A stretch of DNA of 64,000 bases, taken from the NCBI GenBank assembly GCA_032718475.1, contig JAUCBJ010000701.1, positions 7,624 through 71,623 of the forward strand. Reading direction: 5' to 3'. The translations under genes were made by a program, and so were the position numbers. Positions within the stretch are counted from its first letter, which is position 1. Each line of letters starts with the position of its first letter. The stretch is from Nemertoderma westbladi (taxonomy: Eukaryota > Animalia > Xenacoelomorpha). Of the stretch, positions 24,801-63,795 are shown piece after piece. The notes beneath the pieces were generated by a model. The model saw only the letters and a list, made by a program, of their open reading frames with translations, ran no database searches and was not told the origin of the DNA.

Positions 24801-24809
24801 ATCCACTCC

Positions 24810-29925: not shown

Positions 29926-29979
29926 AAGGTTGTAAAACCAATTAAAAAAAAAATATACCTATTTATCGGGAGCCAAACA

Positions 29980-32512: not shown

Positions 32513-32556
32513 TTTATCGAATAATATATTTAGATAAACAAAAGTTAAATGATTAA

Positions 32557-33012
32557 TTACAACGCAAGTTGGTTTATTTTATAATAATTAACAAGCCATT
32601 TATATAATATTATTTCATTTATTTCCAAATTATTTGTAAACGCTGTTATTGGATAGTTTGTGTGAATTCGATTTACCAAGTAATAAAGACAGTATAACCC
32701 GCATGTGGTCCTTCTAGGGTCTTGAAATTGCCTGCGAGTAGTACACCACCTTGCTGCTGAATTTTTCTCAAGCCATTTTTCAATACATCTGTTTGGATAT
32801 TTTGGACCAAACGAATTAAATAATTCAGCTTCATTATCTCGTATATATATAGCCACCCAATGAACACCTGGTAGATGCGCTTTATCGGTATTTACTATTA
32901 ACCCATAGTCTCTTCGCTTATTATTATCTAATTTAGGTAATTTATTAGATGGAAACGCCCCCAAATAGTGACCACCCACTGGAAACATATCAAGGTCCTC
33001 TGTAGATAACAT
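32557..33012 (-). CDS. Adenain-like (Ulp1/C5) cysteine maturation protease
   Basis: LIVNTD...PGVHWVAI, FNSFG, Q.....TCGLYCLYYL. Confidence 0.93.
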   Translation of the reverse strand: MLSTEDLDMFPVGGHYLGAFPSNKLPKLDNNKRRDYGLIVNTDKAHLPGVHWVAIYIRDNEAELFNSFGPKYPNRCIEKWLEKNSAARWCTTRRQFQDPRRTTCGLYCLYYLVNRIHTNYPITAFTNNLEINEIILYKWLVNYYKINQLAL

Positions 33013-33014
33013 AC

Positions 33015-34274
33015 TTAATCGATATGTATTTCTTTCCTGCTATTTAAACTTAATGATTGATCATAAATATTAAAAACGATTACATTTATGGTCTCAACCA
33101 ACGGTTTGGCAAATCTTAATTTTAATTGTCCGTTAGTATATATTGATGGTTGGGGATCCCTAACATAACCGTCGGCAGTTAGGTCTCAGGATATGAGTGG
33201 GCAATTACCTAAGTAGGTTTCATGGTCTATATTATTACCTCCATAACCGTTAATATATGTATTAATGTTCTTCATTAATTGAGTATACTCAAAAATAAAT
33301 GTTCCATCTGTAAAATTAGGCTCGTATATTACACCACCTACTGGAAGACTGTCTACAATCAGCTCCGCGCGTTTAAGGTTAAAATGTTCAAATTTCAATG
33401 GGTTACTAGTTAATTCTCCCGAATATGAATTATTTGTTATAAAACCGATAATAACTAATTTGGGTTTTTTACCATCAAATATGTTTGTTTGGGTGTAATT
33501 TGTGGTTTGAGCGGGAATAGTAAATGTAGTAACCTCTTTTTTTTGAAATTGATATTCAATATTGTAGCTCTCTAAACCTTTTAGATGGCTGCTTTCTATT
33601 ACTGGATTAACCTCCATTCTAGGGATTAGGATCTTTACTTCATCTAATTCTAGCCGAAGATTTGTCACAGCGTTTGCGTTTGGAGTGATTTTAAAAATAA
33701 ACGAATTTGATACTTTTCTAAAATGCATTCTTAAATCATACCCCGGTTGTATTATTTTACTTTCAGTATCAAAATCTATCATCAATCCACTTACAAATTG
33801 CATTTGTTTACTAAAGGCATCGCCAATAGGATGCGCACCGGGATTAATTTCATTTCCGTGTTCGGATAAAGGCTGACGAAAGCCGCCTGCCCCCAGTAGC
33901 CCATTTTTTGTTTCGTATGTTGTAAATAGTAAATTGGATAAGTACGACTTGTAGAAATAATGGTTATTGCTATTTTCAACCTGCTTCTCATTAAGGTCTA
34001 TTTTAATATCACTCCACATAGTTCCAGAAGGGTAATTCAACATATAAATATGTGAGTTTTCAAGTCGTCTATCCTACTGTACAGTACATTTTGTAATTAA
34101 TAACGCATCTTGCAGTTTCGTATAGAATTCATTGGATCTCGGTACAAGAAACGTGACTTCCCTAGACTCGCTTCTGAGATTAGATACTGGGTAAATTGTT
34201 TCATAATGCTTTGCTTTAAATTCAGTCTGCATTGGCTGTGTAGAAAATAAATCTAATTCCTTAATAATTGACAT
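33015..34274 (-). pseudogene. Polinton major capsid protein (double jelly-roll/hexon), disrupted
   Basis: ELDLF..QP.QT, LNEKQV...Y.YKSY...LL, PK.VIIGF..N..YSG...NP..FEHFNL; C-terminus DLT.DG...LRFAKPL in another frame ending at TAA 33015. Confidence 0.85.
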
Positions 34275-34276
34275 TA

Positions 34277-34840
34277 TTAAAAAATACTTTTTTCGCAGTG
34301 TTTCAGTTTGCCTTTTTTTATTTTTCTATTTTTACTATGACGATGATGTATGTTCATAGACATTGGTCTAGTCGGTCGCTTTAAATCTCTATAAACTTTT
34401 TCTACAACTGATCTTGTTGATGGTTTCATTTTATTTAATGCTTTATTAATAACCGTATTAGCCTGCTGATGTAAGACCCGCTTACCTTTTGGTATTACGT
34501 ATTGTCTCATAAATTTTGTGGTAAATGGTAAAGCTTTTTGTAAAACGTTTTTTGCTAATGGCTTTCCAAATTTTTTCAATGTAGATAAAGCGTCTGTAAA
34601 TATACCTTCTCCGTGTTGATTTGTCCGCATACCTCTGCGATAACGTTGAAATCGACGTTGTTTTAAGTTTGGACCAAATGCACCAATTTGTTGACCGTAA
34701 GGGTCAATATATGATCCACCTCGAAAAACAGGAACTTGCGTCGAGCCTCTCGTACTTCTACCACCTTTAAAAACAGCAAGATTAGAGTCTGCACCGCCAT
34801 ATTGAGGTTTACTGTATCTTTGAAATAAATCGGAATCCAT
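34277..34840 (-). CDS. Basic core/membrane-active virion protein with adenain-type Gly cleavage motifs
   Basis: QYGG, PVFRGG, QHGEG followed by amphipathic IFTDALSTLKKFGKPLAKNVL; Arg/Lys-rich; lies between penton and hexon. Confidence 0.65.
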   Translation of the reverse strand: MDSDLFQRYSKPQYGGADSNLAVFKGGRSTRGSTQVPVFRGGSYIDPYGQQIGAFGPNLKQRRFQRYRRGMRTNQHGEGIFTDALSTLKKFGKPLAKNVLQKALPFTTKFMRQYVIPKGKRVLHQQANTVINKALNKMKPSTRSVVEKVYRDLKRPTRPMSMNIHHRHSKNRKIKKGKLKHCEKSIF

Positions 34841-34844
34841 TTTA

Positions 34845-35683
34845 ATTTATTTTTTTAAAGTGTAAGGTAATAGAAGTTGTACCGTATTCAAAATTCAAAT
34901 CTTTTCCTTCTTTGTCTGTTATTTCAATATGAATGTATGTTATCTTATATGATTTTTTTTACAGGGATATAATGAATTGTATCCTTGGCAAATTCTTTAT
35001 TTATTACACTACCATATTTCACGTCATCAGGTATCGCCACGCGACGAAGTAAAGCTAAACCAAAATCATTAATATATTCATTCAATCATTAATATATTCA
35101 TCGACTTAGGTTCTGGAATAGAATTGGGTGGTTGAGGACATAAAAATACCCTCTGGTAAGCTTTTTCTTCATTTCCGATAATCTTTATTAAATAACCCTT
35201 TATATTATTTTTCGTCTTCAAAATAATTTTAAAATTTGGATTTAAATTCGCACCGAGATTATTTTCAGTAATTCCAAAATAATAGGCTAATTGTTGACCT
35301 ATAAATAACTCTCGTACAGTTTTCCCTAAAATAAATTGCAACCTATTTTGCTGAGTATTTTCAACTATTTGTAATTTATCTTTCAACGCCCCAGTATTAA
35401 AATAATCTATAATGTCATTAATACTGTAGAACAAACCGGATGGAAGTGTATCCTCAAAATTTTTTTTCCCTTTTTTTAATAAAATAACATTCTCTACATT
35501 GTTATACATGGATGTTAACGTGGCTAAGTAAAATATACTTTTTATACCTACCACCCAGTTTTCGTTTGGATTTATAGGTAAGGCACCATGGAAATTGATC
35601 TGATAATTACTACCGGTATTACGGGGAAAATCAATTGGACACGAGTTACTTGGTAGCCTAACATAGAATTCATCCATCTCCAC
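34845..35683 (-). pseudogene. Minor capsid protein (penton) paralog 2, frameshifted
   Basis: FYVRLPSNS...FP.N..S.Y...W.VG; C-terminus ALLRRV...HYIPV...IHIEITD..G..L.F..G...ITLHFK in shifted frames. Confidence 0.8.
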
Positions 35684-36539
35684 CGCATATTAACTTAAGT
35701 GTTATAACAGTGCGACCACCGTTGAAATTAATTAATTCACCTTGTCCGTCACGTAAAGTAATTAAGATTGTTTTTAGTTTTTTATTCAACAATGAGTAAT
35801 AGCAAATGCTCTCGTATTCGTGATTAATATATTTTCGATTTAATTGTGTTAAAGGACAGGTTCTTAAGAGCGGAGCTAAAGCATCACCAACAAAAGAGCT
35901 CTCAATAATATCTGTATATATGAAGATTGTATCTTTATTACGAGTAATATTCGTAGGATCTGGAAAATCTAAAATCCCAATTTCCGAAATTTTTGGTCCA
36001 CTATAATTTAAAATTAATATCGGCTGTTCTATATTGCTTAATTCATCCACTGTAGTGGTACTGTATATATCCCAATTCGGAATACCTGGATGATTCTGAT
36101 CCAATAACTGTTTTAAGCCTAGAATTTGTATTAAATCACCGCGTAGACTTAATTGTATTTTTTTCAACTTTTTAGGAAATTTAAATTTAATTCTAGAATT
36201 ATTTGTATTAAAAATGAATTCGAAATCTCTATATTTCGCTTCAGAATTAAACAGTTTATTTATATCATCAATAATGACTTGAATAGAGCTATGCATACCA
36301 GGAAATAAACTGTATAATTTGGCATCTTTTGCATCTACCCCGATTGACAGTGAGATTTGAGTTTGCAAAGTAATATTACTGTATGTTGCTTGATATTGAA
36401 TCTCGGCAAGTCCAATTTTAGCGTTTGAACCAATATATAATTCTTCGGCTAAATCAACAGTAAACTCGCTAGGGTTATTATTGGGATATGTGTTTAATGA
36501 GCTATCTGAAACTAGAGTGATATATGTATCTACAGCCAT
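35670..36539 (-). CDS. Minor capsid protein (penton) paralog 1
   Basis: YITLVSDSS...YPNN.PSEFTV.L...IGLAEIQY; IFIYTDIIE...VGD..APLLR; ITLRD..GE.I.F.GG...ITL.L. Confidence 0.88.
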   Translation of the reverse strand: MAVDTYITLVSDSSLNTYPNNNPSEFTVDLAEELYIGSNAKIGLAEIQYQATYSNITLQTQISLSIGVDAKDAKLYSLFPGMHSSIQVIIDDINKLFNSEAKYRDFEFIFNTNNSRIKFKFPKKLKKIQLSLRGDLIQILGLKQLLDQNHPGIPNWDIYSTTTVDELSNIEQPILILNYSGPKISEIGILDFPDPTNITRNKDTIFIYTDIIESSFVGDALAPLLRTCPLTQLNRKYINHEYESICYYSLLNKKLKTILITLRDGQGELINFNGGRTVITLKLICGGDG

Positions 36540-36551
36540 TATTATTATTAT

Positions 36552-36975
36552 TTAAGCTCTCTCTGCTTGACTCCATTGTACATACTGTACTGTATAATGT
36601 TAAACTATAGACATCTGTGACCACGTTCATTGTTTCTACAGTATATGCGAGAGATCAATATTTAAAGCGAATGAACTATAGATATTAGACTTACAGCATA
36701 GTAATATCATTTGAGTTAATATTGATTAATTACGATCATATGTGACCATTATTCGCTTAAGCTCTCTCTACTTGACTCCTTATACATACTGTATAATGTT
36801 AAATTATAGACATCTGTCACTGCGTTCATTACCACTTCTACAGTATATGTGAGGGATCAATATTTTACTAGCTTTATTTAAAGCGAATGAACTATAGATA
36901 TTAGACTTACAGTATAGTATAGTAATATCATTAGAGTTAATATTGATTAATTACGGTCATATGTGACCATTATTC
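36552..36975. repeat. ~205-bp diverged tandem duplication upstream of the penton genes
   Basis: ttaagctctctct...atatgtgaccattattc repeated at ~36552 and ~36757. Confidence 0.8.
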
Positions 36976-37009
36976 ACGCAATGAATCAATATACAGTATA
37001 AACCTAAAC

Positions 37010-38015
37010 TTATTGAATATGCTGTACCCACGACTGTTTTTTGGATCCAATGAATCGGACTAAATATTCTTTTTTCCCATTGCGCACACGTTCTTTAAGT
37101 TTGCCAATATTTTTGTCAATCGGAAGATAAATATTACTACTCGGGTGGACCTTTTGGAGTTCGTATGAATAAAATGAACCATTTATTATAGCACCAGCGC
37201 TGTCCTTAATATCGAACATTACCGCTGGTACTCTATCCAATCTGACCCAATGAATAATAAATAATTCATGTGTCCATTGTTCTCGATAGCCTTTAGCAAA
37301 AGCAGTACACGCGATAGATAAACGTACTGTATCTCCAACTTGAAATTTTATTTTCTTGTGATTAATCTGTCTATATTTCCCATATAATCTATTAATTAAT
37401 TCAGTTTCATTAAATTTATTAACTTCAATGGGAGTCATTTGTATAGTCCTATGAAATGACCTATTATAAGCAAAAATAAGCTTCGGTAAAATTTTTATCC
37501 AAACATTATTTCCCCGTTGCGTGAAAATTTTGAACATCTTTGTTTTTAATGTTCTATTGAATCTCTCGACAATAGCCGCCTTATTCACAGAGTACATTAC
37601 GTAATAACGTACACCAATAGTATCTAAATATTTTCTTACAGATTTATTTAGAAACTCAGACCGCGATTCTGTTTGGTTTACCTTTCTGGAATATATTTTG
37701 CAATATACTAATAATTTCAATACCTGTTTTTGTCTTCATACCATAGGCAAAAGCAAGCCGGCTAAAGGCATCACTACATGTTAATATATAGTTATAATTA
37801 TTATTTTGTGATTTATATTGCTGCATATCCACCAGATCTATCATATATATATCTTTTAACCCTCCCGTAAATATTTTAGATGTTGGATAATGATGTCTAC
37901 GTGGTGCGTGAAGGGAGTATGTCTTTTGCCCGCTCAACCATTTCTGAGCTTGAGATGGTTTGATGTTTGCGGCTTTTGCTAATTTTGCGATACTTCGGAC
38001 ACTCGTAGCGCCTGT
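37010..38015 (-). pseudogene. Polinton retroviral-like (rve) integrase with C-terminal chromodomain, frameshifted
   Basis: WLSGQKTYSLH.P, IDLVDM, YILTCSDAFSR, SEFLN, KAAIVERFNRTLK, F.KGY...WT.E.F, EYLVRF.G....WV. A small deletion removes the second catalytic Asp region (~37660). Confidence 0.92.
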
Positions 38016-38359
38016 AAAATAAAGGATTGTGATTGGATGCAGTACTAGCGTTGGGTGACTAATAACGCCTCTAGCGGAAGATGCGGGAACATGAGAAGTT
38101 ACCATGGTTACGGTTGAAATGCTGGCATCTGATTGGATGAAATAATAACGACCACTGGTAAAGGTTGAAATGGTGGCTTCTGATTGGATGCAGTACTAGA
38201 AATGGATGGTAATGATGGGCTATGGGTGACCTTGATGCGAGGGACTACAAACATATACTACTGGTTGAATCTCTCAAGTATATAATGCGGTATGTAAGTA
38301 TCTATCTATTACAAAAATTTGTTCCACCACCATGCAACCTTCAATTGGCTTACTGTGAA

Positions 38360-46248: not shown

Positions 46249-48579
46249 TGTAGTGCATGCCCAATAGTCAAGGAAGCTTAGAAATAATTTATTCACAAAA
46301 TCAAATTTAGTATTTTCATAAAATTGTTAGTCGAGACATTTTACCTATCTTTCTACAAAGCAAAACACCTTATTTATTTACTTAAGATACAGCATGTTGA
46401 TTTCATGTGCAAAACAGATGTAGTCTCAATAATAGCCCTTATACAGTAGATGTCAATTAAACAGATATTTATCAGAGTGACATCGCACATGTCTGCTGCA
46501 AGAAACCACTAACACTAGCTTGCTTAAATACTGCATGTAACTTTCATTAAGAGAGAGAGAGAAAGAGAAATAGAATAGATTTAATTACCGGTAAAGTTAT
46601 ATTTGGAGACCGTAATAATAAGTTGAAAGTTAGACATTAAAAACCAGAACCAAAACTATATTATTTTCATCATAACAAAGACAACGTCCAAACCTTTACA
46701 TTGGTGACCCACTCCATTGAATACATTGCAGGAGAAAGTAACATAGTCGCTGATACTTTATCACGTCAAATCGCTTCAATTAGTATTGATTCTTTTGGAT
46801 TGGAAGATATTGCCTCTCAACAGTCAGCCAATTTAATCCTTCCTGAAGATCATTCGCTAAATATTAAAACATTTCCATTAGCAAATGGTAAAGTTATTAA
46901 GTGCGACGTAACTACTGCATACCCTAGACCCATCCTACCAGATTCATGTAGACGAACAGTATTCAATGAACTACACAACATGTCACATCCAGGAATTAAA
47001 TCGACCATACGCATAATAACTGATCGTTATATTTGGCCAAATGCTAAACGAGACATAGTGGAATGGTGTAAATTGTGCACATCTTGTCAAGCAAGTAAAG
47101 TAATACAACACACAAAAACACCCCTAACACCATTTCCTTTGGCACCACGTTTCACACATATCCATTCAGATATAATTGGTCCACTAGTCATGGGTGAGCA
47201 CCAATATCGACACGTAGTAACGTTCATAGATCGACACACTGGGTGGGTAGAAGCAGAGCCAGTTACGTCAATCACAGCTGTTGCCACAGCGACTGCATTT
47301 ATAAAAGTCTGGTTTTCTCGATTTGGAGTGCCCCTTTACCTCACAACAGATCGCGGTGGTCAATTTGAATTACTAGCTGAACTCTCTAAGCTGATTGGTT
47401 TCCACCGTATGCGTACCACATCTTACCACCCCCAGAGTAACGGAAAAATAGAACGATTCCATAAAGTTTTAAAGGCTGCACTCAAAGCACGGAAATCATA
47501 TTGGTTAGAGTCCTTACCAATAGTTATTTTCAGTCACAGAATAACGCCATCTAGCGTTACTAATGTATCTCCATTTGAATTGGTAACGGGAACACAGCCG
47601 TTGTTGCCAGCTTGTTTACTAACTACTAAAGATACAACTTTTAATTATGACTTTGTAAAGACACTTCACAAGCATATAACGGAAATAGGATTTACTGTAG
47701 ACAGTAAAGCTCCTGATTACCAAGAGAGCAACCCAAAGTTGAAAACATACTTACCACCACAATTAAAGACTTGTGACAAAGTTTTCGTTAGAATCGATCG
47801 GGTCCGCAAACCATTAGAAGCGCCTTACCAAGGACCATTTACAGTTCTCAGCAGAACGGATAAACATTTCTGTATCGAAACTCTTAGAGGAGAACAACGA
47901 ATATCAATCGACCGCTTAAAACCTTGTTATACCGGTAACGTTAATAAGAAACCCCCTCCAACCAAGAAACTAAAACCTCATAAGATATTACATAGTAAAA
48001 CTCACAAAGAAAATAAATCACAATCTCAACCGCGAAACATCATTACTACTAGAAGCGGAAAGCGAGTACATTTCTTTGACTCTTAGTTTTAGTTATTCTT
48101 ATTCCATAACTTAATGGAGGGAGATGTGTAGTGCATGCCCAATAGTCAAGGAAGCTTAGAAATAATTTATTCACAAAATCAAATTTAGTATTTTCATAAA
48201 ATTGTTAGTGGAGACATTTTACCTATCTTTCTACAAAGCAAAACACCTTATTTATTTACTTAAGATACAGCATGTTGATTTCATGTGCAAAACAGATGAC
48301 GTAGTCTCAATAATAGCCCTTATACAGTAGATGTCAATTAAACAGATATTTATCAGAGTGACATCTCACATGTCTGCTGCAAGAAACCACTAACACTAGC
48401 TTGCTTAAATACTGCATGTAACTTTCATTAAGAGAGAGAGAGAGAGAAATAGAATAGATTTAATTACCGGTAAAGTTATATTTGGAGACCGTAATAATAA
48501 GTTGAAAGTTAGACATTAAAAACCAGAACCAAAACTATATTATTTTCATCATAACAAAGACAACGTCCAAACCTTTACA
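46249..48579 (+). mobile_element. Internally deleted Gypsy LTR retrotransposon (integrase only)
   Basis: ~452-bp near-identical LTRs TG..CA (46249-46700, 48127-48579); PBS TGGTGACCC (tRNA-Trp-like); PPT at ~48113-48126; 4-bp flanks ggga/ggca. Confidence 0.93.
46701..48086 (+). CDS. Gypsy RNase H tail + integrase (HHCC, DDE, GPF) open reading frame
   Basis: G..NIVADTLSR; H...HPG...C..CQ; HSDIIGP; TDRGGQF; YHPQSNGKIERFH; YQGPF. Confidence 0.88.
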   Translation: MVTHSIEYIAGESNIVADTLSRQIASISIDSFGLEDIASQQSANLILPEDHSLNIKTFPLANGKVIKCDVTTAYPRPILPDSCRRTVFNELHNMSHPGIKSTIRIITDRYIWPNAKRDIVEWCKLCTSCQASKVIQHTKTPLTPFPLAPRFTHIHSDIIGPLVMGEHQYRHVVTFIDRHTGWVEAEPVTSITAVATATAFIKVWFSRFGVPLYLTTDRGGQFELLAELSKLIGFHRMRTTSYHPQSNGKIERFHKVLKAALKARKSYWLESLPIVIFSHRITPSSVTNVSPFELVTGTQPLLPACLLTTKDTTFNYDFVKTLHKHITEIGFTVDSKAPDYQESNPKLKTYLPPQLKTCDKVFVRIDRVRKPLEAPYQGPFTVLSRTDKHFCIETLRGEQRISIDRLKPCYTGNVNKKPPPTKKLKPHKILHSKTHKENKSQSQPRNIITTRSGKRVHFFDS

Positions 48580-48650
48580 GGCACACAGGCAAATGAATTG
48601 ATGTCTGTTGAGATGTATTGAAGGAGCACTATTCCTTCTACTAGACTACT

Positions 48651-49395
48651 ACACGTTCGTGGGGCCTTCGCGCAGCACGAGGCCCAGTTATTAGATACAA
48701 ATTAAAATTGAGCGACTGTATCACAAAATCAGGTTTTGAGAAATTTACCCACACCACCAATCAATCAAAGAAAGGGGGACAGTACGTGTTCACCCCTTTT
48801 AATCCCCCCCCCCCCCAACCTTCCCAACCACCAATACATAACCGGGACATCTACCACCCACGGAAGGGTAGCACGAACTTATTTCCAATCGCACGTTAAA
48901 TATGCAAAGCCAGGTGGTTTATAGGAATATAATAAACGCAGTACTCGTTTTCATTATAAGCCTCTTTGCGTTCGTCCTGTTTTGTATTTAAATATATTTC
49001 TTAAACGCAGGCTGACGATATTTATAATAATAATAATTAGGGATGCGATCAATATGTGAAGCCAGGTGGTTTATATAATAATTTAGTCAACGAGGTACTC
49101 GTCTTCATTATATGCCTCGTTGCGCTCGTCGCTTGTCCTGTTTTGTCATAAAATATTTTTCCTAAACGCAGACTGACGATCTTTATACAGTTATAACTAT
49201 GCGAAGTTTCGAAACTGTGCGATACATCTATGTGGAGATGTGTGATATGTGGAGATGTGTGATACAACGCCAACGCATCTTATGCCGATGTAGTAATATG
49301 GGTATTGAAATAATATTAAATCAATGTACACTCTTAAAGCTGCAGCGAAAAAATGTAGCTAATTTCCTAGGTTACATATAAAATAATAATATTAT
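48651..49395 (+). mobile_element. Partial copy of the Helentron-like 1.55-kb unit
   Basis: Reverse complement of ~56640-57392. Confidence 0.8.
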
Positions 49396-49599
49396 TTTTT
49401 TAACAGCAATCAGACAACAGCTCAGCCTACAAATCGTCTGTACAATCTGATCAGGTTTACACGCCTTCTGTTCAATACTGGCCTACAAACAAATAAAACT
49501 TGACAGAAATAAGTAAAAATCTCAATAAAAAACCAGGGCTGCAGTCCCTGATTAATTATTAAGGCCTACCGGTATATAACTATCAAAATCGAATAATAC

Positions 49600-52287
49600 T
49601 AATGTACTTATATGGGAAGTACCGGTTAGGACAGTTAGGCCTACGGACCTACAGAAGTACCGGTTCTGGCAGTTGGACCTACGGACCTAAGGCAGTACCG
49701 GTTCTGGCTGTTCGCGCTTTCGAAGACCTTTAGCAGTTTAACCTGCCAAAATTTATATGTCTTTTCGTTAATTAAAACCACTTTAGCATACGACAATAAT
49801 TTATGCTAATACGCAAAACATTAGCCGAAGTCAGCCCATGCGCGATCATTCACCCGATGGATCTACACCCGGGAGACTGAATTCGGATGCTTGAATTGTA
49901 TTATTACAGTGTAAGGTTGCAGTGTATACCTAATGTATTATTCGATAGATCGTTAATAATTAATCTCTGACAGATATTATTGGCTTTCGGGAAATATTAA
50001 CAGTTCCTTTAGGACGTGGCGCTTTATCTATTTAAACAGAACTAAGACTTATACTAAACGCAATGATACTGCCTATGATTAAAGTATAAAACGTATTCTT
50101 TAGGAAATACTTTGTTACCAATCACAATCATACACACTATTCTGCCGACAGTCAGTACATTTGATCACACATAAAGAGAGCAGTAATTGACTCACGTAGG
50201 GTCTGCTAAATAACATTGGATTCAATACACACCACATTAATATAAATCGCAATTGTTATGTATAGCCGGTCTCTCTAACCTGTAGTGTTATCAAGAAAAT
50301 TGGGAATTGGGTGATTTATCCGTATTATCCAAATAGCAATATTTCCATCAACAAATATTTACAATTAATAACTGACGGTAAAATAACAGTACAAACAATA
50401 TGATTAATGAGTTAGTTAGGTAACAGTTTATACTTTCGATAATTCAAGCAGTTTACGGTACAGCAGTATCTATCCAAAAATGCCGGTGTTTCTGGCTTAG
50501 ACAGCAATAACAACAAAGTATCAAGAAAAAACAGTAAGACTGAACACTCTCCTTATGATCGGCAGAAAAGCTACACGTCGACAGGAAAAACCGCCCTGAT
50601 TGGCCCAAGCCAAACAAAGAACCACGCGTCCAATGGCTGTTTCCATGTCAGCAACCAGCTGCTAGATGTCGTAATATGAATCATCACGGCTAAGCTGTGA
50701 AAGGTGGTTGGTGCATTACAAGTTTTTTGTCTTACCATGTCCACTAAAACACGTATATAGCAGAATTACTTTTATGTCCGTTAAAACCCCTGTAAAGGTA
50801 CCTTGCGGGCGAGGGGAACATATATACAGTTAGAAAACCTTTTTTAGAGTATTCCAGCGCCTGGGGGGGAACTGGCCAGCAAAGGCAAACGTATCAGTTA
50901 TCCCACAAAAGCTTTTACACTGGCAGTTGGGCCTACTGACCTACAGATGTACCGGTTCAGGTTTACCGGTTGACCGGTACTTTCAACTTTATTGCTTACT
51001 GCAATAAAGAAGCTATATCCTTTAATGTTCGCGCTTTCAGACCTTTGGCAGTTTAACCCGCCAAATTAAGATGTCTTCTAGATATTAAATCGCTTTTTAG
51101 CCTATGACAAGTATTTGATTCACTACACTAGTCGAAACCAATCTGTGCGCGATCATTCACCCGCTGGATATTCCCGGGAGATTGGGTTCGACGGTTTAAT
51201 TTTATTGCTATGTAAGCCTAATGTATTATTCGACTGACAGTATTATATAATCTCTGACAATATTATTCACCTTCGGGAATATTAACAGTTCCTTTAGGAC
51301 GTGGCGCTTTATCTATATAAACAGAGTTATGACTTAAACTACTCACAACGATATGGCTTAATTATAATTCACATATATGGCGCATTCTTTAGGAAATGCT
51401 TCTTTAACAGACTCACTCGTACACAATGCTGCACAATACTGCACACTAATCTGCCAATCTTCACTGATTTTAGTCACATATAAAAGGAACACAGACTGAC
51501 TCATGTAGGGTCTATCAAATAACATTAGATTCACTTCAAACCACTTTAACATAAGTCACAATCGTCATTGGTAACCTTTCTCTCTTACCTTCGGTATATC
51601 AAGAATATTGGGTGTCGGGGTTATTTCTCGTTATTCCAATATAATAATTCATCAACAAATATAATGAATAACCGACAACAAATAACAATATACAGTATCG
51701 ATTGAGCAGGTAATTTTAGCAGTTTCAGCAGTTATTAAAAGCCGTGTGTCAGCAGTGATTACGAAATTGCAGTGATTCCATGAGTTAAAGGATATATGTC
51801 CTTATAATTAAACCTACTAGTGTTGAGCTAAAAAGCAGAATGCACAAAACACTACAAAGCCGTTCTTTCGTGGCTTTGAAAAACTCGTGACTACTGCTCT
51901 ATACAAGGATACCAACTACCCTTATTCCACGAAGCTCCCGTTCAACACAGAGAAAGAGCAGTGAGATAGGAAAATTTCAGTTCAGTAGCTCTGTGATAGG
52001 TCAAAATCAAAGCTAACTCAAATTCTATTGGGAGATACAGAAAGTTGCAACGTGGCAATATCAGCCGTTAGCCGTCGTCATGGTAGCGACACTGTTTTCA
52101 AGAGTATCGAGCCTTTTACGTCACGAAATTACAGATTATGTCCTCTAAAGTACAAATACAGAAGAAATGGCTTTTATGTCCTCCAAAACACCAGTACAGC
52201 AAGGACACGGCCTTTTTATGCCTGGTAAACCAACCACAGAGTACTTTACGGGGATAATAACCGGCTAATTACGCAAAAGCTTTTACA
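49600..52287. repeat. Two diverged ~1.3-kb tandem units
   Basis: Collinear anchors: gttcgcgctttc (~49710/~51027), acagttcctttaggacgtggcgctttatctat (~50000/~51286), caaaagcttttaca (~50906/~52274). Confidence 0.75.
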
Positions 52288-52605
52288 AGGCCACAGGTTC
52301 TTGAGATATGGAGAATTAATTTCAAAGACAGCTGCCATTTTATTAGCCCCTGATTTTTTATTATTGATAGTAACAATGTGTTGGCAAGCTGTATTTTTCG
52401 AGGTGTTTGTTATTATACATTTATTATAGGAAGGGATCTAGGGGTCGTAACCTCGAATGATAAGTTTATTTTACCGAAAATAACTTATCTTTTATTGGCG
52501 CAATTGTGGGACTAATCCCATCACATGCGTACTTTTTAACCGGGTAGTGTACAAATTTAGAAATCGCGTTATTTTTCTTGAAATTAATATCTCATATCTC
52601 TCCAA

Positions 52606-52648
52606 ACCACGTACGCGTTTCGACCTTACTGGGTCTCATCAGCGTGGT
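52606..52648 (-). ncRNA. Minimal type I hammerhead ribozyme, copy 1
   Basis: ACCACG-CUGAUGA-GACC-caguaa-GGUC-GAAA-CGC-GUA-CGUGGU: intact core, stem I 6 bp, stem II 4 bp, palindromic ACGCGU stem III. Confidence 0.9.
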
Positions 52649-52651
52649 GTC

Positions 52652-52704
52652 GGAATCGAACCTGGGACCTCGAGGCGGAAGCTGAGACTACAACCACTAG
52701 GCCA
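52652..52704 (-). promoter_or_regulatory. tRNA-type internal Pol III promoter (A and B boxes); second copy 53063-53115
   Basis: A-box TGGCCTAGTGG (52694-52704) and B-box GGTTCGATTCC (52652-52662) at tRNA-like spacing. Confidence 0.8.
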
Positions 52705-53016
52705 CAGGTTCTTGAGATATGGAGAATTAATTTCAAAGACAGCTGCCATTTTATTAGCCCCTGATTTTTGATTATTGATAGTAACAATGTGTTGGCAAGC
52801 TGTATTTTTCGAGGTGTTTGTTATTATACATTTATTATAGGAAGGGATCTAGGGGTCTTAACCTCGAATGATAAGTTTATTTTACCGAAAATAACTTATC
52901 TTTTATTGGCGCAATTGTGGGACTAATCCCATCACATGCGTACTTTTTAACCGGGTAGTGTACAAATTTAGGAATCGCGTAATTTTTCTTGAAATTAATA
53001 TCTCATATCTCTCCAA

Positions 53017-53059
53017 ACCACGTACGCGTTTCGACCTTACTGGGTCTCATCAGCGTGGT
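53017..53059 (-). ncRNA. Minimal type I hammerhead ribozyme, copy 2
   Basis: Identical to copy 1. Confidence 0.9.
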
Positions 53060-53271
53060 GTCGGATTCGAACCTGGGACCTCGAGGCGGAAGCTGAGACT
53101 ACAACCACTAGGCCACAGGTTCTTGAGATATGGAGAATTAATTTCAAAGACAGCTGCCATTTTATTAGCCCCTGATTTTTGATTATTGATAGTAACAATG
53201 TGTTGGCAAGCTGTATTTTTCGAGGTGTTTGTTATTATACATTTATTATATATATTATTATTATATATTTA

Positions 53272-54190
53272 TTATTTATTATATCTTCCTATAATATTAT
53301 TAGTGGCAATGCCTAAATACGTAATAAGGCGGGAATAGCCATCAATACCACCATGAACCACAAGGTTCCATCTTACCAATCTATGGTGGCCATCAATATG
53401 CCACAGACTGTTTGCGGCCTTTACGGAATATTGCCGCCTTGTGACTATGGCACCCCACCTTATAGCAGTACCTACTGGATCTATATAATGCAGAATTCTG
53501 TGAACACGTGGCAAGCTAACAACAACCGACCTCGAACGCAAAATCGAGTTTATCATTCGGCAACCCGCATGAGGATATTCTCTCCTAATTTCTTTCACCA
53601 AATTACATAAATCTTCCTCTGTTATTTCAGTCATTTCTCTTCGAATACCAAGTTCCCGAACTCTCGCCATTATACAAGAACGACTAACTCCCAACATTGT
53701 TGCAATTTGAGACCAAGTAAAGCCGCAGTCTTTCAAATATGTTAAAGTCTCTTCCCGTATATCGAATTCCGGCCTACCGACTGGGTTGATGGAATCACTT
53801 AGATTACTGGTAGTTTGCAGTCTTAATACACCTTCAACTATTGTAGTGCAACTAATTGACTCCCGGCGCCGACATTATCTGTAGGTGCAGAAACTAATGC
53901 GTTTCGAAGAAATAATATCTATTAAAATAATCTATCCCCGCTGTATTATCGTCCACATTTATGTCATTTACGAGATTTAAACAAGATATTGAATTTTCAA
54001 GCCTTTGAAGCAATTTGAATGTATCTCGTACGAAAGATGGATGCTTTCAGGCGATATGTACTCATCTGATTGATTCTGCAACATGATACCACAACTGGGG
54101 CAAAAGTTATCGGAAGTTATGTTAACTTCGTGCCGACAGTGCCGGCATAATCCATAGAATCAGACCACTCAGAATCCACAGAATCCATAG
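53272..54190 (-). pseudogene. IS3EU/IS481-like DDE transposase fragment, 3'-truncated
   Basis: [18 protein letters not shown]; [37 protein letters not shown]. Cut off at the 411-bp array. Confidence 0.8.
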
Positions 54191-54604: not shown

Positions 54605-55737
54605 TAAACGTGAAAACTGACATCTAAAATAAAATCAGCACCCATTAAAACCCCCATAACGAGAATGTTAGTTAGTTTGTATTCTTTTTTAAGTTTTGAC
54701 AGACTGACTGACTGACAGAAAGGCCGACAAACAGACAGACTAGATTTATGTAAACCTGAAAACTGACACCAGAAATGAAATCAGCACCCCTTAAAACCCC
54801 CATAGCGAGAATGTTAGTTAATTTGAATTATCTTTTAAGTTTTGACAGACTGACTGACAGAATGACCGACAGACAGACAGACTAGATTTATGTAAACGTG
54901 AAAACTGACATCAGAAATGTAATCAGCACTCCTTAAAACCCCCATAGCGAGAATGTTAGCGACAAGTTTTAAATATTAACCATATTTCGTAAGATATATT
55001 TTAAAACATTTATTTATTAATAATGCAATAACTGAATAACCAGATAACGGAAAGACAAATCGAATTGAAACTTTTAATTACTAATAATAATTGTGGTGAG
55101 AGGTGATGGAAATCAAGAATATATGTTATGTTATGGAGCACGCGTTGGTAGGCACAGGCAAATGAATTGATGTCTGTTGAGATGTATTGAAGGAGCACTA
55201 TTCCTTCTACTGGACTAACGAGAATGTTAGTTAGTTTGTATTCTATTTTTAAGTTTTGACAGACTGACTGACTGACAGAAAGGCCGACAAACAGACAGAC
55301 TAGATTTATGTAAACCTGAAAACTGACACCAGAAATGAAATCAGCACCCCTTAAAACCCCCATAGCGAGAATGTTAGTTAATTTGAATTATCTTTTAAGT
55401 TTTGACAGACTGACTGACAGAATGACCGACAGACAGACAGTCTAGATTTATGTAAACGTGAAAACTGACATCAGAAATGTAATCAGCACTCCTTAAAACC
55501 CCCATAGCGAGAATGTTAGCGACAAGTTTTAAATATTAACCATATTTCGTAAGATATATTTTAAAACATTTATTTATTAATAATGCAATAACTGAATAAC
55601 CAGATAACGGAAAGACAAATCGAATTGAAACTTTTAATTACTAATAATAATTGTGGTGAGAGGTGATGGAAATCAAGAATATATGTTATGTTATGGAGCA
55701 CGCGTTGGTGGGCACAGGCAAATGAATTGATGTCTGT
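54605..55737. repeat. Helentron/HINE-like repeat with GACA microsatellites, ~560-bp tandem duplication
   Basis: Repeated aaactgacatcagaaatgtaatcagcac..ttaaaacccccatagcgagaatgttag. The same family occurs at 44820-46245 and 48580-48650. Confidence 0.75.
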
Positions 55738-58700
55738 GGGGCGAGCCACGAAGTGAGTGAGCCTTAGCGTAGTGGTACCATTAATCAACCTGTGGGGCGA
55801 GCCACGAAGTGAGTGAGCCTTAGCGTAGTGGTACCATTAATCAACCTGTCGTTCTGTCGTTCTGTCGTTCTGTCGCGTCCAATTTTAAACGTTAATAACT
55901 CAGCCAATCTTTGATGAAATCTATCCAAACTTGGTACACATGTTGTTTGGCAAAAGTTTAGAAATTTTCCAAGTAGAATTTCCGTGTGGCCTTCGAGAAG
56001 CTAAGATAATAGCAGTTAATTAGTTAATTAAGTTGATTACGGTAAAAACACCATTTTCAACCTGCCTGTTAAAGGAAATTAATTGTTTTACAGTATAAGA
56101 TTTAAATAATTATACTTAAAAATTATACAGATGTAATCCACATACGCCATTCTATTATAGTTTTTAATTAGTTCAAGTGATTTGCTTTATTAATTGTGTC
56201 TTTAATTGATCTAAAGTAATTAAAACGTCATAAAAAATTGATTCTCATTAAATACTGCTCATTTATTGGCTAACATGCTGGTACAATGGAAGGATGTGTG
56301 TGTAAGGCAGCTAGTGCTGGGAATGATTATTGGTCAAGTCTCTGCTGGTGTGGAGCTAGCTGGGAGTTGTGGCTGTAGACTAACCAGAGAGAAATTGTAA
56401 TAGGCAACCAGTATTGCTATTCCAGCCCAGGCAGCATTCCAACATCCCAACATCCTTCCTGTATTGACTCTACTATAAGTGTTGTATTGCTATCTCAGGT
56501 AAATGACAGATATAATAACATAAATACCATCCATGGCATGGCTGTTGTGTAGGCTTATCTGAAATAGTTTATTCCACAATGTATATGTCTGGTTATTTTT
56601 TAATTGAATTTTTGCAAAGTAGTAAAATTAATGTTCTTAAAAATAATATTATTATTTTATATGTAACCTAGGAAATTAGCTACATTTTTTCGCTGCAGCT
56701 TTAAGAGTGTACATTGATTTAATATTATTTCAATACCCATATTACTACATCGGCATAAGATGCGTTGGCGTTGTATCACACATCTCCACATATCACACAT
56801 CTCCACATAGATGTATCGCACAGTTTCGAAACTTCGCATAGTTATAACTGTATAAAGATCGTCAGTCTGCGTTTAGGAAAAATATTTTATGACAAAACAG
56901 GACAAGCGACGAGCGCAACGAGGCATATAATGAAGACGAGTACCTCGTTGACTAAATTATTATATAAACCACCTGGCTTCACATATTGATCGCATCCCTA
57001 ATTATTATTATTATAAATATCGTCAGCCTGCGTTTAAGAAATATATTTAAAACCAAAACAGGACGAACGCAAAGAGGCTTATAATGAAAACGAGTACTGC
57101 GTTTATTATATTCCTATAAACCACCTGGCTTTGCATATTTAACGTGCGATTGGAAATAAGTTCGTGCTACCCTTCCGTGGGTGGTAGATGTCCCGGTTAT
57201 GTATTGGTGGTTGGGAAGGTTGGGGGGGGGGGGGGGGGGATTAAAAGGGGTGAACACGTACTGTCCCCCTTTCTTTGATTGATTGGTGGTGTGGGTAAAT
57301 TTCTCAAAACCTGATTTTGTGATACAGTCGCTCAATTTTAATTTGTATCTAATAACTGGGCCTCGTGCTGCGCGAAGGCCCCACGAACGTGTCGTTCTGT
57401 CGTTCTGTCGTTCTGTCGCGTCCAATTTTAAACGTTAATAACTCAGCCAATCTTTGATGAAATCTATCCAAACTTGGTACACATGTTGTTTGGCAAAAGT
57501 TTAGAAATTTTCCAAGTAGAATTTCCGTGTGGCCTTCGAGAAGCTAAGATAATAGCAGTTAATTAGTTAATTAAGTTGATTACGGTAAAAACACCATTTT
57601 CAACCTGCCTTTTAAAGGAAATTAATTGTTTTACAGTATAAGATTTAAATAATTATACTTAAAAATTATACAGATGTAATCCACATACGCCATTCTATTA
57701 TAGTTTTTAATTAGTTCAAGTGATTTGCTTTATTAATTGTGTCTTTAATTGATCTAAAGTAATTAAAACGTCATAAAAAATTGATTCTCATTAAATACTG
57801 CTCATTTATTGGCTAACATGCTGGTACGATGGAAGGATGTGTGTGTAAGGCAGCTATTTGCTGGGAATGATTATTGGTCAAGTCTCTGCTGGTGTGGAGC
57901 TAGCTGGCTTGGAGTTGTGGCTGTAGACTAACCAGAGAGGAATTGTACTGTAATAGGCAACCAGTATTGCTATTCCAGCCCAGACATCATTCTTTAAATC
58001 CAACATCCCAACATCCTTCCTGTATTGACTCTACTATAAGTGTTGTATTGCTATCTCAGGTAAATGACAGATATAATAACATAAATACAATCCATGGCAT
58101 GGCTGTTGTGTAGGCTTCTGAAATAGTTTATTCCACAATGTATATGTCTGGTTATTTTTTAATTGAATTTTTGCAAAGTAGTAAAATTAATGTTCTTAAA
58201 AATAATATTATTATTTTATATGTAACCTAGGAAATTAGCTACATTTTTTCGCTGCAGCTTTAAGAGTGTACATTGATTTAATATTATTTCAATACCCATA
58301 TTACTACATCGGCATAAGATGAGTTGGCGTTGTATCACACATCTCCACATAGCAGACATCTCCACATAGATGTATCAACAGTTACTCGCACAGTTTCGAA
58401 ACTTCGCATAGTTATAACTGTATAAAGATCGTCAGTCTGCGTTTAGGAAAAATATTTTATGACAAAACAGGACAAGCGACGAGCGCAACGAGGCATATAA
58501 TGAAGACGAGTACTGCGTTGACTAAATTGTTATATAAACCACCTGGCTTCACATATTGATCGCATCCCTAGTTATTATTATTATAAAGATCGTCCTAGCC
58601 TGCGTTTAAGAAATATATTTAAATACAAAACAGGACGAACGCAAAGAGGCTTATAATGAAAACGAGTACTGCGTTTATTATATTCCTATAAACCACCTGG

Positions 58701-60505
58701 CTTTGCATATTTAACGTGCGATTGGAAATAAGTTCGTGCTACCCTTCCGTGGGTGGTAGATGTCCCGGTTATGTATTGGTGGTTGGGAAGGGTGGGGGGG
58801 GGGGGGATTAAAAGGGGTGAACACGTACTGTCCGCCTTTCTTTGATTGATTGGTGGTGTGGGTAAATTTCTCAAAACCTGATTTTGTGATACAGTCGCTC
58901 AATTTTAATTTGTATCTAATAACTGGGCCTCGTGCTGCGCGAAGGCCCCACGAACGTGTCGTTCTGTCGCTTTTTTTGCAGTGTTCAATTTTAAACGTTA
59001 ATAACTCGGCCAATCTTTGATGAAATCTATCCAAACTTGGTACACATGTTGTTTGGCAAAAGTTTAGAAATTTTCCAAGTAGAATTTCCTTGTGGCCTTC
59101 GAGAAGCTAAGATAATAGCAGTTAATTAGTTAATTAAGTTATTACGGTAAAAACACCATTTTCAACCTGCCTTTTAAAGGAAATTAATTGTTTTACAGTA
59201 TAAGATTTAAATAATTATAATTAAAAATTATACAGATGTAATCCACATACCCCATTCTATTATAGTTTTTAATTAGTTAAAGTGATTTGCTTTATTAATT
59301 GTGTCTTTAATTGATCTAAAGTAATTAAAACGTCATAAAAAATTGATTCTCATTAAATACTGCTCATTTATTGGCTAACATGCTGGTAAGATGGAAGGAT
59401 GTGTGTGTAAGGCAGCAGCTAGTTGCTGGGAATGATTATTGGTCATGTCTCTGCTGGTGTGGAGCTAGCTTGGAGTTGTGGCTGTAGACTAACCAGAGAG
59501 AAATTGTAATAGGCAACCAGTATTGCTATTCCAGCCCAGGCAGCATTCCAACATCCCAACATCCTTCCTGTATTGACTCTACTATAAGTGTTGTATTGCT
59601 ATCTCAGGTAAATGACAGATATAATAACATAAATACCATCCATGGCATGGCTGTTGTGTAGGCTTATCTGAAATAGTTTATTCCACAATGTATATGTCTG
59701 GTTATTTTTTAATTGAATTTTTGCAAAGTAGTAAAATTAATGTTCTTAAAAATAATATTATTATTTTATATGTAACCTAGGAAATTAGCTACATTTTTTC
59801 GCTGCAGCTTTAAGAGTGTACATTGATTTAATATTATTTCAATACCCATATTACTACATCGGCATAAGATGCGTTGGCGTTGTATCACACATCTCCACAT
59901 ATCACACATCTCCACATAGATGTATCGCACAGTTTCGAAACTTCGCATAGTTATAACTGTATAAAGATCGTCAGTCTGCGTTTAGGAAAAATATTTTATG
60001 ACAAAACAGGACAAGCGACGAGCGCAACGAGGCATATAATGAAGACGAGTACTGCGTTGACTAAATTGTTATATAAACCACCTGGCTTCACATATTGATC
60101 GCATCCCTAGTTATTATTATTATAAAGATCGTCCTAGCCTGCGTTTAAGAAATATATTTAAATACAAAACAGGACGAACGCAAAGAGGCTTATAATGAAA
60201 ACGAGTACTGCGTTTATTATATTCCTATAAACCACCTGGCTTTGCATATTTAACGTGCGATTGGAAATAAGTTCGTGCTACCCTTCCGTGGGTGGTAGAT
60301 GTCGCGGTTATGTATTGGTGGGTGGGGGGAGGGGGGGGGGGGGGGTGTGCAGATTAAAAGGGGTGAACACGTACTGTCCCCCTTTCTTTGATTAATTGGT
60401 GGTGTGGGTTAATTTCTCAAAACCTGATTTTGTGATACAGTCGCTCAATTTTAATTTGTATCTAATAACTGGGCCTCGTGCTGCGCGAAGGCCCCACGAA
60501 CGTGT
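55737..60505 (-). mobile_element. Helentron-like element as a head-to-tail trimer of a ~1.55-kb unit
   Basis: Three near-identical units with one duplicated terminal module at 55737-55850. Inserted in tgtctgT/Tgagatg with no TSD (empty site at 55171-55184). Confidence 0.75.
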
Positions 60506-62106: not shown

Positions 62107-63795
62107 CGCAATAATTTTTATTGTCCGTTTAAATCCTTTTTTTGTCCTTATTTTTTGATTTTTTATGTCCTCCAAAAGTCTAATGTTAGGTTCCATGCTA
62201 CCGGTTTCTCTACTGCTGTTCTCTCAGGCTATCAGTACCGGTATTGGTATATATAGCACTATTTTGCTGTATTGTATGTACAGATGTAGGTATAAAGCAG
62301 GTATTTCTGTATTTTAGTACCGGCACCGGTACTGCTATAGGCCTACTGTGTAGCCTACCATTTAAATACGGTAATGGTAGGCCTACCGGTGTTGTGCTAA
62401 TAAATTTTAAATAATTGATAGGCCAAACTGGATTGTAGGATTGTGGAAAATGTGGATATACCTTTCACATAATTTAGGCCTATTACTGTATTAGTTTTAT
62501 AATCAATAATGGATCATGACTACTGTCTGAGTAGTGTTACGGATAACCTGCTCCTTTCCCTGATTTGGTAAAGTGACTGTTTATTGTTTTGGTTAGAAAA
62601 TCCGGCCTTAACCTGCTCCTTTCCCTCAATTAGTTAAGTGATCGTTTATTGTTTTGGTTAGAAAATCCCGCCTCTGTAACCTGCTCCTTTCTCTCAATTG
62701 GTAATGTTATCGTTTATTGTTTTGGTTAGAAAATCCCGTCTCCGTAACCTGCTCCTTTCCCTCAATTAGTTAAATGATCGTTTATTATTTTGGTTAGAAA
62801 ATACCGCCTCTGTAACCTGCCCCTTTCCCTCAATTAGTTAAAGGATCGTTTATTGTTTTGGTTAGAAAATCCCGCCTCTGTAACCTGCTCCTTTCCCTGA
62901 ATTGGTAAAGTGACCGTTTATTGTTTTGGTTAGAAAGGCCCGCCTCTGTAACCTGCCCCTTTCCCTCAATTAGATAAATGATCGTTTATTGTTTTGGTGA
63001 GAAAATCCCGCCTCTGTAACCTGCTCCTTTCCCTCAATTAGTTAAGTGATCGTTTATTGTTTTGGTTAGAAAATTCCGCCTCTGTAACCTGTCCCTTTCC
63101 CTCAATTAGTTAAATGATCGTTTATTGTTTTGGTTAGAAAATCCCGCCTCTGTAACCTGCTCCTTTCCCTCAATAAGTTAAGTGATCGTTTATTGTTTTG
63201 GTTGGAAAATCCCGCCTCTGTAACCTGCTCCTTTCCCTCAATAAGTTAAGTGATCGTTTATTGTTTTGGTTAGAAAATCCCGCCTCTGTAACCTGCTCCT
63301 TTCCCTCAATTAGTTAAGTGATCGTTTATTGTTTTGGTTAGAAAATCCCGTCTCTGTAACCTGCTCCTTTCCCTGATTTGGTAAAGTGACTGTTTATTGT
63401 TTTGGTTAGAAAACTCGGCCTTAACCTGCTCCTTTCCATCAATTGGTAATTGTTTTTGGCTATAAAATGAGTGTTTTGCTACGTCATGTGGTATTCGATT
63501 ATCGACAACAACCACAAACTATTAAATATAGAGTCTTTTTACCACAGGCGCATATGGAAATCAATCTCATAGTCTATAAATCATGGAATCATGGAATGTT
63601 TTGGCACAGGCATAGTGAAATCAACTGTCTGACAGTCCAGAAATCAGCAGTCTGACAGTTTGAAGAAATACATACATAAAAAGTCATTAAAAGGACAATA
63701 AAAGTCATTAAAAGGACAACAAAAGTCATTATGCATAATTCGTAAAAAAAAAATGACAGAAAAAGTCAAATAAAAGGACATAAAAAATCACTGCC
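62107..63795. mobile_element. MULE/foldback-type non-autonomous element carrying a minisatellite
   Basis: 9-bp TSD aataactat at 62098-62106 and 63796-63804; imperfect TIR cgcaataatttttattgtcc / ggacataaaaaatcactgcc. Confidence 0.65.
62546..63447. repeat. 68-bp minisatellite, ~13 copies
   Basis: Unit aacctgctcctttccctcaattagttaagtgatcgtttattgttttggttagaaaatcccgcctctgt. Confidence 0.93.

What the first reader, a model, noticed from the sequence alone, without database searches (positions are those of the whole stretch)
52288..53250. Tandem 411-bp unit coupling a tRNA-type Pol III promoter to a minimal hammerhead ribozyme (retrozyme-like)
Seen on the minus strand: A-box TGGCCTAGTGG and B-box GGTTCGATTCC, then 3 nt later ACCACG CUGAUGA GACC..GGUC GAAA CGC GUA CGUGGU. 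The motif is repeated exactly 411 nt apart, with no coding capacity. Established: minimal type I hammerheads with palindromic stem III act as dimers in metazoan non-LTR retrozymes, Penelope pLTRs, newt satellite 2 and schistosome Sm-alpha (the last also has Pol III boxes). Inference: read-through transcripts self-cleave to 411-nt monomers that can circularise. Each monomer carries the promoter for the next round, making a self-contained non-coding replicon probably mobilised by a Penelope-type RT. The partial-unit ends fit rolling reverse transcription of a circle.
Basis: partly seen in the sequence, partly recalled or inferred. Interest (0 to 1): 0.8.

Follow-up and report, generated by a model that had tools for sequence, protein, structure and literature searches.

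The report
Fluke-style retrozyme with tRNA-type promoter
This is one copy of an abundant 411-base non-coding repeat in an animal genome that places tRNA-type promoter boxes just in front of a hammerhead ribozyme motif, so it likely makes its own RNA, is predicted to cut it into unit-length pieces that would close into circles, and is likely pasted back by another transposon's enzyme, a design already known from blood flukes.

Summary
52288-53250 is 2.34 copies of a 411-nt unit. Two copies carry, on the minus strand, an A box, a B box 42 nt later and a type I hammerhead motif with palindromic helix III; neither motif arose in shuffles. Public DNA contigs show a high-copy, near-uniform family, head-to-tail elsewhere too. 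All copies here share two rare letters, pointing to one template. There is no target duplication. The array joins a cut transposase gene to another cut repeat, through an A/T filler and a 12-nt inverted piece of the unit, which is Penelope-like. No Penelope ORF was found in the window. It fits a non-LTR retrozyme and copies the promoter-then-hammerhead layout of Schistosoma Sm-alpha, but its tRNA head no longer scores as a tRNA. Two corrections: the hammerhead has canonical metazoan geometry, not the Penelope 'minimal' form, and a T4 run must be read through. Transcription, cleavage, circles and the mobilising enzyme are untested. This scan already noted what appears to be the same 411/412-nt family at several other loci of this genome. 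Verdict: new member of a known kind.

The parts
52288..53250 (-). Tandem array, 2.34 units of 411 nt
53105..53115 (-). A box, copy 1; predicted Pol III start near 53122 if the box sits at tRNA position 8 (inferred)
53063..53073 (-). B box, copy 1 (family-majority letters), starting 42 nt after the A box
53017..53059 (-). Type I hammerhead motif, copy 1: helix I 6 bp, helix II 4 bp, palindrome ACGCGU at 53029-53024, predicted cut 3' of A53023 (GUA)
52612..53022 (-). Predicted 411-nt monomer between the two cut sites; long arms pair its two ends and rebuild helix I in the circle
52888..52891 (-). Only T4 run of the unit (possible weak Pol III stop), inside a hairpin stem; second copy at 52477-52480
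52694..52704 (-). A box, copy 2
52652..52662 (-). B box, copy 2 (one private change at 52655)
52606..52648 (-). Type I hammerhead motif, copy 2; predicted cut 3' of A52612
52288..52293 (-). 3' end of the array, inside the third A box, 87 nt short of where the next cut site would be
53251..53296 (.). 5' junction: 34-nt A/T-only filler, then a 12-nt inverted copy (53285-53296) of the unit sequence that spans the 5' break point
53296..53790 (-). Upstream neighbour: integrase-core (PF24764 rva_4) transposase-like gene, cut at about residue 262 of 448; C-terminal half absent from the window
51800..52287 (.). Downstream neighbour: a different high-copy repeat, cut at 52287 (only this part was laid)

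Best explanation
This is a young, high-copy tandem repeat of an animal with tRNA-type A/B boxes in front of a type I hammerhead motif, likely a non-LTR retrozyme of Sm-alpha design that is predicted to be transcribed by Pol III, to self-cleave to a 411-nt monomer that would circularise, and to be copied back, likely by a Penelope-type reverse transcriptase. Shown: the repeat, boxes, hammerhead motif, high copy number, shared rare letters, no target duplication, inverted 5' piece. Inferred steps: (1) Pol III starts near 53122 and reads through one T4 run; (2) the two hammerheads cut after GUA, probably as a double hammerhead through the ACGCGU palindromes; (3) long complementary arms hold the monomer's ends together and a host ligase (RtcB, as shown in vitro for other retrozymes) closes it; (4) a reverse transcriptase starts internally, here in the A box, and goes about 2.3 times round, ending in a short fold-back and A/T filler; (5) integration went with loss or rearrangement of target DNA. 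Any insertion with two or more promoter-hammerhead modules, like this one, can start the next round; a solo monomer cannot.
For: Motifs far above chance. Monomer fold z -4.68; circle -104.8 versus shuffles -78.3 +/- 5.9; helix I and II pairs 0.76-1.0 in the circle. Two-copy cofold gives the classical double hammerhead, and in the array transcript the enforced double form (-230.0) beats two single forms (-222.7). Runs X1, X3 and X5 (three studies; X1 may be the source sample) cover the whole unit, with median summed depth 6.9e5, 4.3e5 and 5.2e3, while the 8 pieces listed for X1 have depth 5-30; a 441-nt contig in X4 is one unit closed head-to-tail, and X1 shows joints 52698 to 52289/52290. All three copies share the letter at 52328/52739/53150 (3-12% of family depth) and both share that at 52508/52919 (about 0.2%). 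Longest word common to the two flanks is 4 nt; the inverted 12-mer has simulated chance 0.0003-0.005; inverted 5'-truncated pieces and A/T targets are Penelope traits (bioRxiv 10.1101/2021.04.23.441226 passages; PMC11167929 passages). The layout equals that described for Sm-alpha.
Against: The active double fold lies 3.9 kcal/mol above the minimum-energy fold and its pair probabilities are about 0 in the computed ensemble. Only 1 of 9 Xenopus retrozyme dimers cleaved in vitro (bioRxiv 10.64898/2026.07.22.740005). A T4 run precedes the second hammerhead and T runs are not depleted (1 seen, mean 1.64, P 0.47). The head is not recognised as a tRNA. At 52359/52770/53181 copies 1-2 carry the family's minor letter (28-32%) and copy 3 the major one, and copy 2 has 4 private changes against 0 in copy 1, so the array is not strictly clonal. 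Hammerhead cleavage was not needed for Penelope insertion in vitro.
Confidence: 0.62

Rival explanations
1. Same retrozyme and RNA cycle, but copied by a LINE enzyme, or used as a cDNA patch at a chromosome break, rather than by a Penelope enzyme.
For: The array bridges two unrelated, cut elements with filler DNA, as break repair would leave (repair pattern recalled). LINE-like RT fragments lie in the window and no GIY-YIG family was hit in 23 of 28 long ORFs scanned. Nematostella hammerhead repeats have LINE-like 15-bp duplications (PMC4918200 passage).
Against: No target duplication and no poly(A)-like tail here; the 3' end is internal to the unit and the 5' end has an inverted piece.
Confidence: 0.15
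2. The unit is the pseudo-LTR of a coding Penelope-like element with a tRNA-derived promoter; this locus is a 5'-truncated partial tandem of it.
For: Penelope pLTRs carry hammerheads with short palindromic helix III and form partial tandems with inverted 5' pieces. 24 of 57 Xenopus retrozyme families match known repeats, nearly all Penelope ends.
Against: Units join head to tail with no ORF between them here and in other runs; depth is fairly even along the unit. Helix sizes match canonical retrozyme hammerheads, not the min-HHR of schistosome Penelope elements (weak, since other Penelope hammerheads are less atypical). No Penelope ORF was found in the window.
Confidence: 0.1
3. The A/B boxes are a relic; the array is read by Pol II or by read-through from neighbours (as newt satellite 2), or it grew by DNA-level tandem duplication and the hammerhead is idle.
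For: No cloverleaf; T4 inside the unit; shared rare letters also follow from local duplication; newt repeats appear to use Pol II.
Against: Both boxes match consensus at tRNA spacing, 0 of 2000 shuffles; the majority letters of the family keep both boxes among the variants shown (23 variant rows were not displayed); fractional copy number with an inverted junction piece is not expected from unequal crossing over (inference).
Confidence: 0.13

Closest known systems
Schistosoma Sm-alpha / Sj-alpha SINE-like hammerhead repeats (seen through PMC6765202, PMC2770079, PMC8490949, PMC4918200 passages; Ferbeyre 1998 and Laha 2000 not read)
   Same: Tandem non-coding unit with a tRNA-type Pol III promoter followed by a type I hammerhead; after cleavage the promoter lies at the 3' end of the monomer, so at least two units are needed to propagate; very high copy number.
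   Different: Sm-alpha is 335 bp with a tRNA-Gln part still called by tRNA finders; here the unit is 411 nt, the head is not called as tRNA, its T-stem 3' half and acceptor 3' strand are replaced by hammerhead helix I, and it is predicted to refold as one long hairpin. Sequence homology and host lineage were not tested.
Metazoan non-LTR retrozymes (Cervera and de la Pena 2020, PMC7229834, parts 2-4 of 6 read; Li, Clavereau and Pollet, bioRxiv 10.64898/2026.07.22.740005, parts 1-3 of 5 read)
   Same: 150-450 bp tandem units, type I hammerhead in consecutive units, GC under 50%, no LTR or ORF, stable self-paired monomer, proposed circle copied by a Penelope or LINE enzyme.
   Different: The parts read name no promoter for these elements ('promoter' occurs twice in PMC7229834, both T7; supplements not read). 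This unit carries a clear A/B box pair.
Penelope-like element pseudo-LTRs with hammerheads (PMC4209133, bioRxiv 10.1101/2021.04.23.441226, PMC11167929; passages)
   Same: Short palindromic helix III, partial tandems, inverted 5' piece, A/T-rich target, internal start of reverse transcription.
   Different: No RT-endonuclease frame between or beside the repeats; hammerhead helix sizes are canonical.

Membership tests
Non-LTR retrozyme | Tandem repeat of about 150-450 bp with a complete type I hammerhead in at least two consecutive units | tested here: met
   411-nt unit, two complete motifs
Non-LTR retrozyme | No protein coding, no LTR structure, GC under 50% | tested here: met
   No Met-started long frame; GC 39%; PBS and PPT were not searched specifically
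Non-LTR retrozyme | Stable, self-paired monomer; hammerhead fold below -5 kcal/mol | tested here: met
   z -4.68; motif -12.3 kcal/mol
Non-LTR retrozyme | Many genomic copies | tested here: met
   Thousands of contigs and summed depth far above single pieces in three DNA runs; not a true copy count
Non-LTR retrozyme | Self-cleavage and accumulation as linear and circular RNA | not testable with these tools
   Needs in vitro cleavage and raw RNA reads
Sm-alpha / Sj-alpha | Pol III A and B boxes placed just before the hammerhead | tested here: met
   (sequence only; activity untested)
Sm-alpha / Sj-alpha | Recognisable tRNA-Gln-derived head | tested here: not met
   ARAGORN 0 genes; no Rfam tRNA match up to E 10; a 13-tRNA covariance model hit only the B box, E 4.3-4.8
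Sm-alpha / Sj-alpha | Sequence homology to Sm-alpha and a schistosome host | not tested
Penelope-like element (pLTR) | RT plus GIY-YIG frame between or beside the repeats | tested here: not met
   None in 23 of 28 ORFs of 150 aa or more scanned; nearest frames are integrases. The rest of the genome could not be searched
Penelope-like element (pLTR) | Partial tandem with an inverted, truncated 5' piece | tested here: inconclusive
   Present but only 12 nt, chance 0.0003-0.005
Penelope-like element (pLTR) | min-HHR geometry (helix II 7-8 bp, helix I 4-5 bp, as in S. mansoni PLEs) | tested here: not met
   Helix I 6 bp, helix II 4 bp against definitions

The most novel reading that the evidence does not exclude
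An independently evolved, self-promoting retrozyme outside flukes: the tRNA head keeps its DNA-level A/B boxes but in the RNA has been rebuilt into a rod (the 5' acceptor strand pairs with the B box, probability 1.0 in the circle) fused to hammerhead helix I. That would hide the circle from tRNA-processing enzymes and may be where a Penelope reverse transcriptase starts, since this insertion ends inside the A box. It would give a complete, testable promoter-to-insertion cycle for animal retrozymes.
Probability: 0.3. Interest if true: 0.55.

Novelty: new member of a known kind. Interest (0 to 1): 0.33.

Why it matters
Animal retrozymes are abundant circular RNAs, yet the papers read here do not say what transcribes most of them, and the enzyme that inserts them is still a hypothesis. 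A young, near-uniform, high-copy family with an obvious type 2 Pol III promoter lets both be tested: mutate the B box and follow the circle; census the insertion ends against resident Penelope and LINE families. If the host is not a fluke, the Sm-alpha design has arisen or spread more widely than the papers read here describe. The design itself is published, and this locus adds one junction to a family the scan has already noted.

Tried and rejected
No whole genome is held, so no copy census or search for a Penelope partner. Run search: 7 runs listed, no RNA holder listed; this says nothing on expression. Run X4 (organism B, RNA only as a guess) holds one closed 441-nt unit contig, but it also covers the neighbouring repeat; unit-to-flank depth ratio 1.2 against 2.8-4.3 in DNA runs, so I rejected it as evidence of a circular RNA; trace genomic DNA explains it. 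B box plus hammerhead pattern: 3 loci in metagenome contigs and 1 in viral contigs; none is tandem or similar to the unit beyond the motif; two are tRNA clusters, one a single tRNA-Ser with a terminator-like hairpin, one unexplained. Terminator depletion test negative. tRNA cloverleaf tests negative; by eye a bulged anticodon-like arm with UCC remains, which is not a test. Search of earlier findings by sequence and near this place returned nothing. Lunse et al. 2017 was not held. Six literature searches showed no paper on a Pol III-boxed hammerhead repeat outside schistosomes, but most subscription papers and supplements were not searchable.

Full report
Observation. The 411-nt period holds from 52288 to 53250, 2.34 units, with five mismatches (52359, 52447, 52561, 52570, 52655 against the position 411 higher) (TRF). 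On the minus strand two copies carry an A box (53115, 52704), a B box starting 42 nt later (53073, 52662) and, 3 nt behind it, a type I hammerhead motif with predicted cuts after A53023 and A52612. The third, partial copy stops inside its A box. The box pair is found nowhere else in the window and in 0 of 2000 shuffled monomers. A type I descriptor hits only these two sites and 0 times in 30 shuffled windows. Rfam gives HH9 at E 0.0075 and 0.022, below the gathering score, and E 0.00014 on a 401-nt stretch. The box and core consensus patterns I used are recalled, not taken from a call.

The ribozyme. Helix I has 6 bp, helix II 4 bp with a 6-nt loop, and helix III is a 1-2 bp stub within the palindrome ACGCGU. 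Cervera and de la Pena 2014 (PMC4209133, passages) call this geometry the canonical metazoan type I form, which needs a second copy to fold actively; their Penelope min-HHR of S. mansoni has a longer helix II and shorter helix I. So 'minimal' is a misnomer. Two copies cofold into the double hammerhead. In the predicted 835-nt transcript the enforced double form scores -230.0 kcal/mol, two single forms -222.7, and the unconstrained minimum -233.9, where helices I and II form but helix III does not; double-form pair probabilities are about 0. The dimer is thus the better active fold but not the ground state. Activity is not assured: 1 of 9 Xenopus dimers cleaved (bioRxiv 10.64898/2026.07.22.740005, part 3).

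The monomer. The 411 nt between the cuts fold at -110.1 kcal/mol, z -4.68, 0 of 100 shuffles as good; as a circle -104.8 against -78.3 +/- 5.9 in 100 shuffles. Long arms pair the 5' end with the region before the tRNA-like head, and helices I and II re-form in the circle at probabilities 0.76-1.0. The head is not a cloverleaf: no ARAGORN gene, no Rfam tRNA match to E 10, and a model built from 13 tRNAs of loci L001 and L002 matched only the B box (E 4.3 and 4.8). Its first seven bases pair with the B box at probability 1.0. The unit has one T4 run, 231 nt after the predicted start, and no T5; this is no fewer than shuffles give. T4 is the shortest Pol III stop in vertebrates (recalled), so the cycle needs partial read-through.

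The family. Six of seven listed runs hold part of the stretch. I laid 4 of them on 51800-52698. X1 gave 5,451 contigs, X3 1,966, X5 127 and X4 21, counting unit and flank together. Median summed depth on the unit was 6.9e5 in X1 and 4.3e5 in X3, while the eight pieces listed for X1 have depth 5-30. The tool warns that this is no copy number; I infer thousands of copies. X1 may be the source sample; X3 and X5 are other studies. Head-to-tail joints occur in X1, and X4 holds a 441-nt contig, one unit plus overlap. Four of the five differences between neighbouring copies are private to the downstream copy (other letter 99.8-99.97% in X1). All three copies share a letter at 52328/52739/53150 held by 12% (X1) or 3% (X3) of family depth, and both share one at 52508/52919 held by about 0.2%. 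That points to one template. Against strict clonality, copies 1-2 and copy 3 differ at a site that is polymorphic in the family (28-32% minor letter), in an A-rich run. One template fits rolling reverse transcription but also local duplication or copying of an uncut multimer.

The junctions. Upstream lies an integrase-core gene (PF24764) with 86 longer relatives; the few that carry an organism name are oyster, sponge, mussel and limpet. It breaks at about residue 262 of 448, and five full-length relatives find no C-terminal half in the window. Downstream lies another high-copy repeat; its pieces in X3 and X5 end at 52287 and X4 contigs run on with letters absent from the window. The longest word shared by the two flanks is 4 nt. 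So there is no target duplication, and target DNA was lost or rearranged, at or after insertion. Between gene and array sit 34 nt of A/T only and a 12-nt inverted copy (53285-53296) of the unit sequence spanning the 5' break, five bases of it lying beyond the break; simulated chance 0.0003-0.005. Inverted truncated 5' pieces and microsatellite targets are listed for Penelope-like elements (bioRxiv 10.1101/2021.04.23.441226, passages). A Penelope enzyme cuts A/T-rich DNA and starts copying inside its template (PMC11167929, passages), which fits a 3' end 87 nt short of the cut site. The same paper found hammerhead cleavage unnecessary for insertion in vitro. No GIY-YIG family was hit in 23 of 28 ORFs of 150 aa or more; the five left out were three repeat-derived and two antisense frames.

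Comparison. The unit meets the sequence criteria for non-LTR retrozymes (PMC7229834, parts 2-4; Li et al., parts 1-3). There, circles were shown in coral, mussel and axolotl, RtcB closed monomers in vitro, and Penelope or LINE enzymes were proposed as mobilisers. The promoter-then-hammerhead layout, with the promoter left at the 3' end of the cut monomer and tandem copies needed, is described for Sm-alpha (PMC6765202, passage). Sm-alpha carries tRNA-Gln still called by tRNA finders (PMC2770079; PMC4918200) and is 335 bp (PMC8490949). So this works like Sm-alpha, but membership is not shown: the head fails the tRNA test and homology was not tested. I read none of the primary Sm-alpha papers and no supplements. 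The host looks like an animal; its lineage was not determined.

Earlier notes. Four unchecked notes describe what appears to be the same 411/412-nt family elsewhere in this genome. They agree with this reading, but one puts the family beside a LINE tail with a 14-base duplication, which keeps the mobilising enzyme open. I could not check those loci.

Verdict. Real, well-formed, and a new member of a known kind. My rough odds: retrozyme about 0.9, working Pol III promoter about 0.7, Penelope-type copying about 0.6; whole chain about 0.6. Interest 0.33.

Noticed in passing
window 26173-38195: Cluster of long frames that looks like a Polinton/Maverick-type element: a split polymerase-like frame (by eye; no Pfam polymerase hit), a TBP-like domain (PF00352, E 3.8e-8), an adenovirus-type protease (PF00770, E 5e-5) and several unassigned frames.
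   Followed up: partly
L001:347-470 and L002:1196-1300, 984-1030: Hammerhead cores directly behind tRNA genes in dense, phage-like tRNA clusters; L002 has two Rfam hammerhead matches and a GOLLD RNA. They may process the tRNA cluster transcript.
   Followed up: partly
L004:1201-1250: B-box-like word followed by a hammerhead-like core in a viral contig with no tRNA call; a second core lies about 580 nt away.
   Followed up: no
window 30663-31562: Another two-copy tandem of 452 nt, 97% matched; no hammerhead descriptor hit there.
   Followed up: partly
window 48584-49399 and 55153-60100: A dispersed repeat in direct and inverted copies (596-nt arms 100% complementary, 7.2 kb apart, flanking the array region), with about 1543-nt and 560-nt periods.
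   Followed up: no
window 5918-6598, 11530-12009, 22743-24857, 18332-22503, 46641-48086: Fragments of non-LTR reverse transcriptases (RVT_1 in two of them), a BEL/Pao-like LTR element and a Gypsy-like integrase (clade names inferred); the window is mostly transposon debris.
   Followed up: partly
window 3214-3841 and 62544-63449: Minisatellites: 42 copies of 15 nt and 13.4 copies of 68 nt.
   Followed up: no
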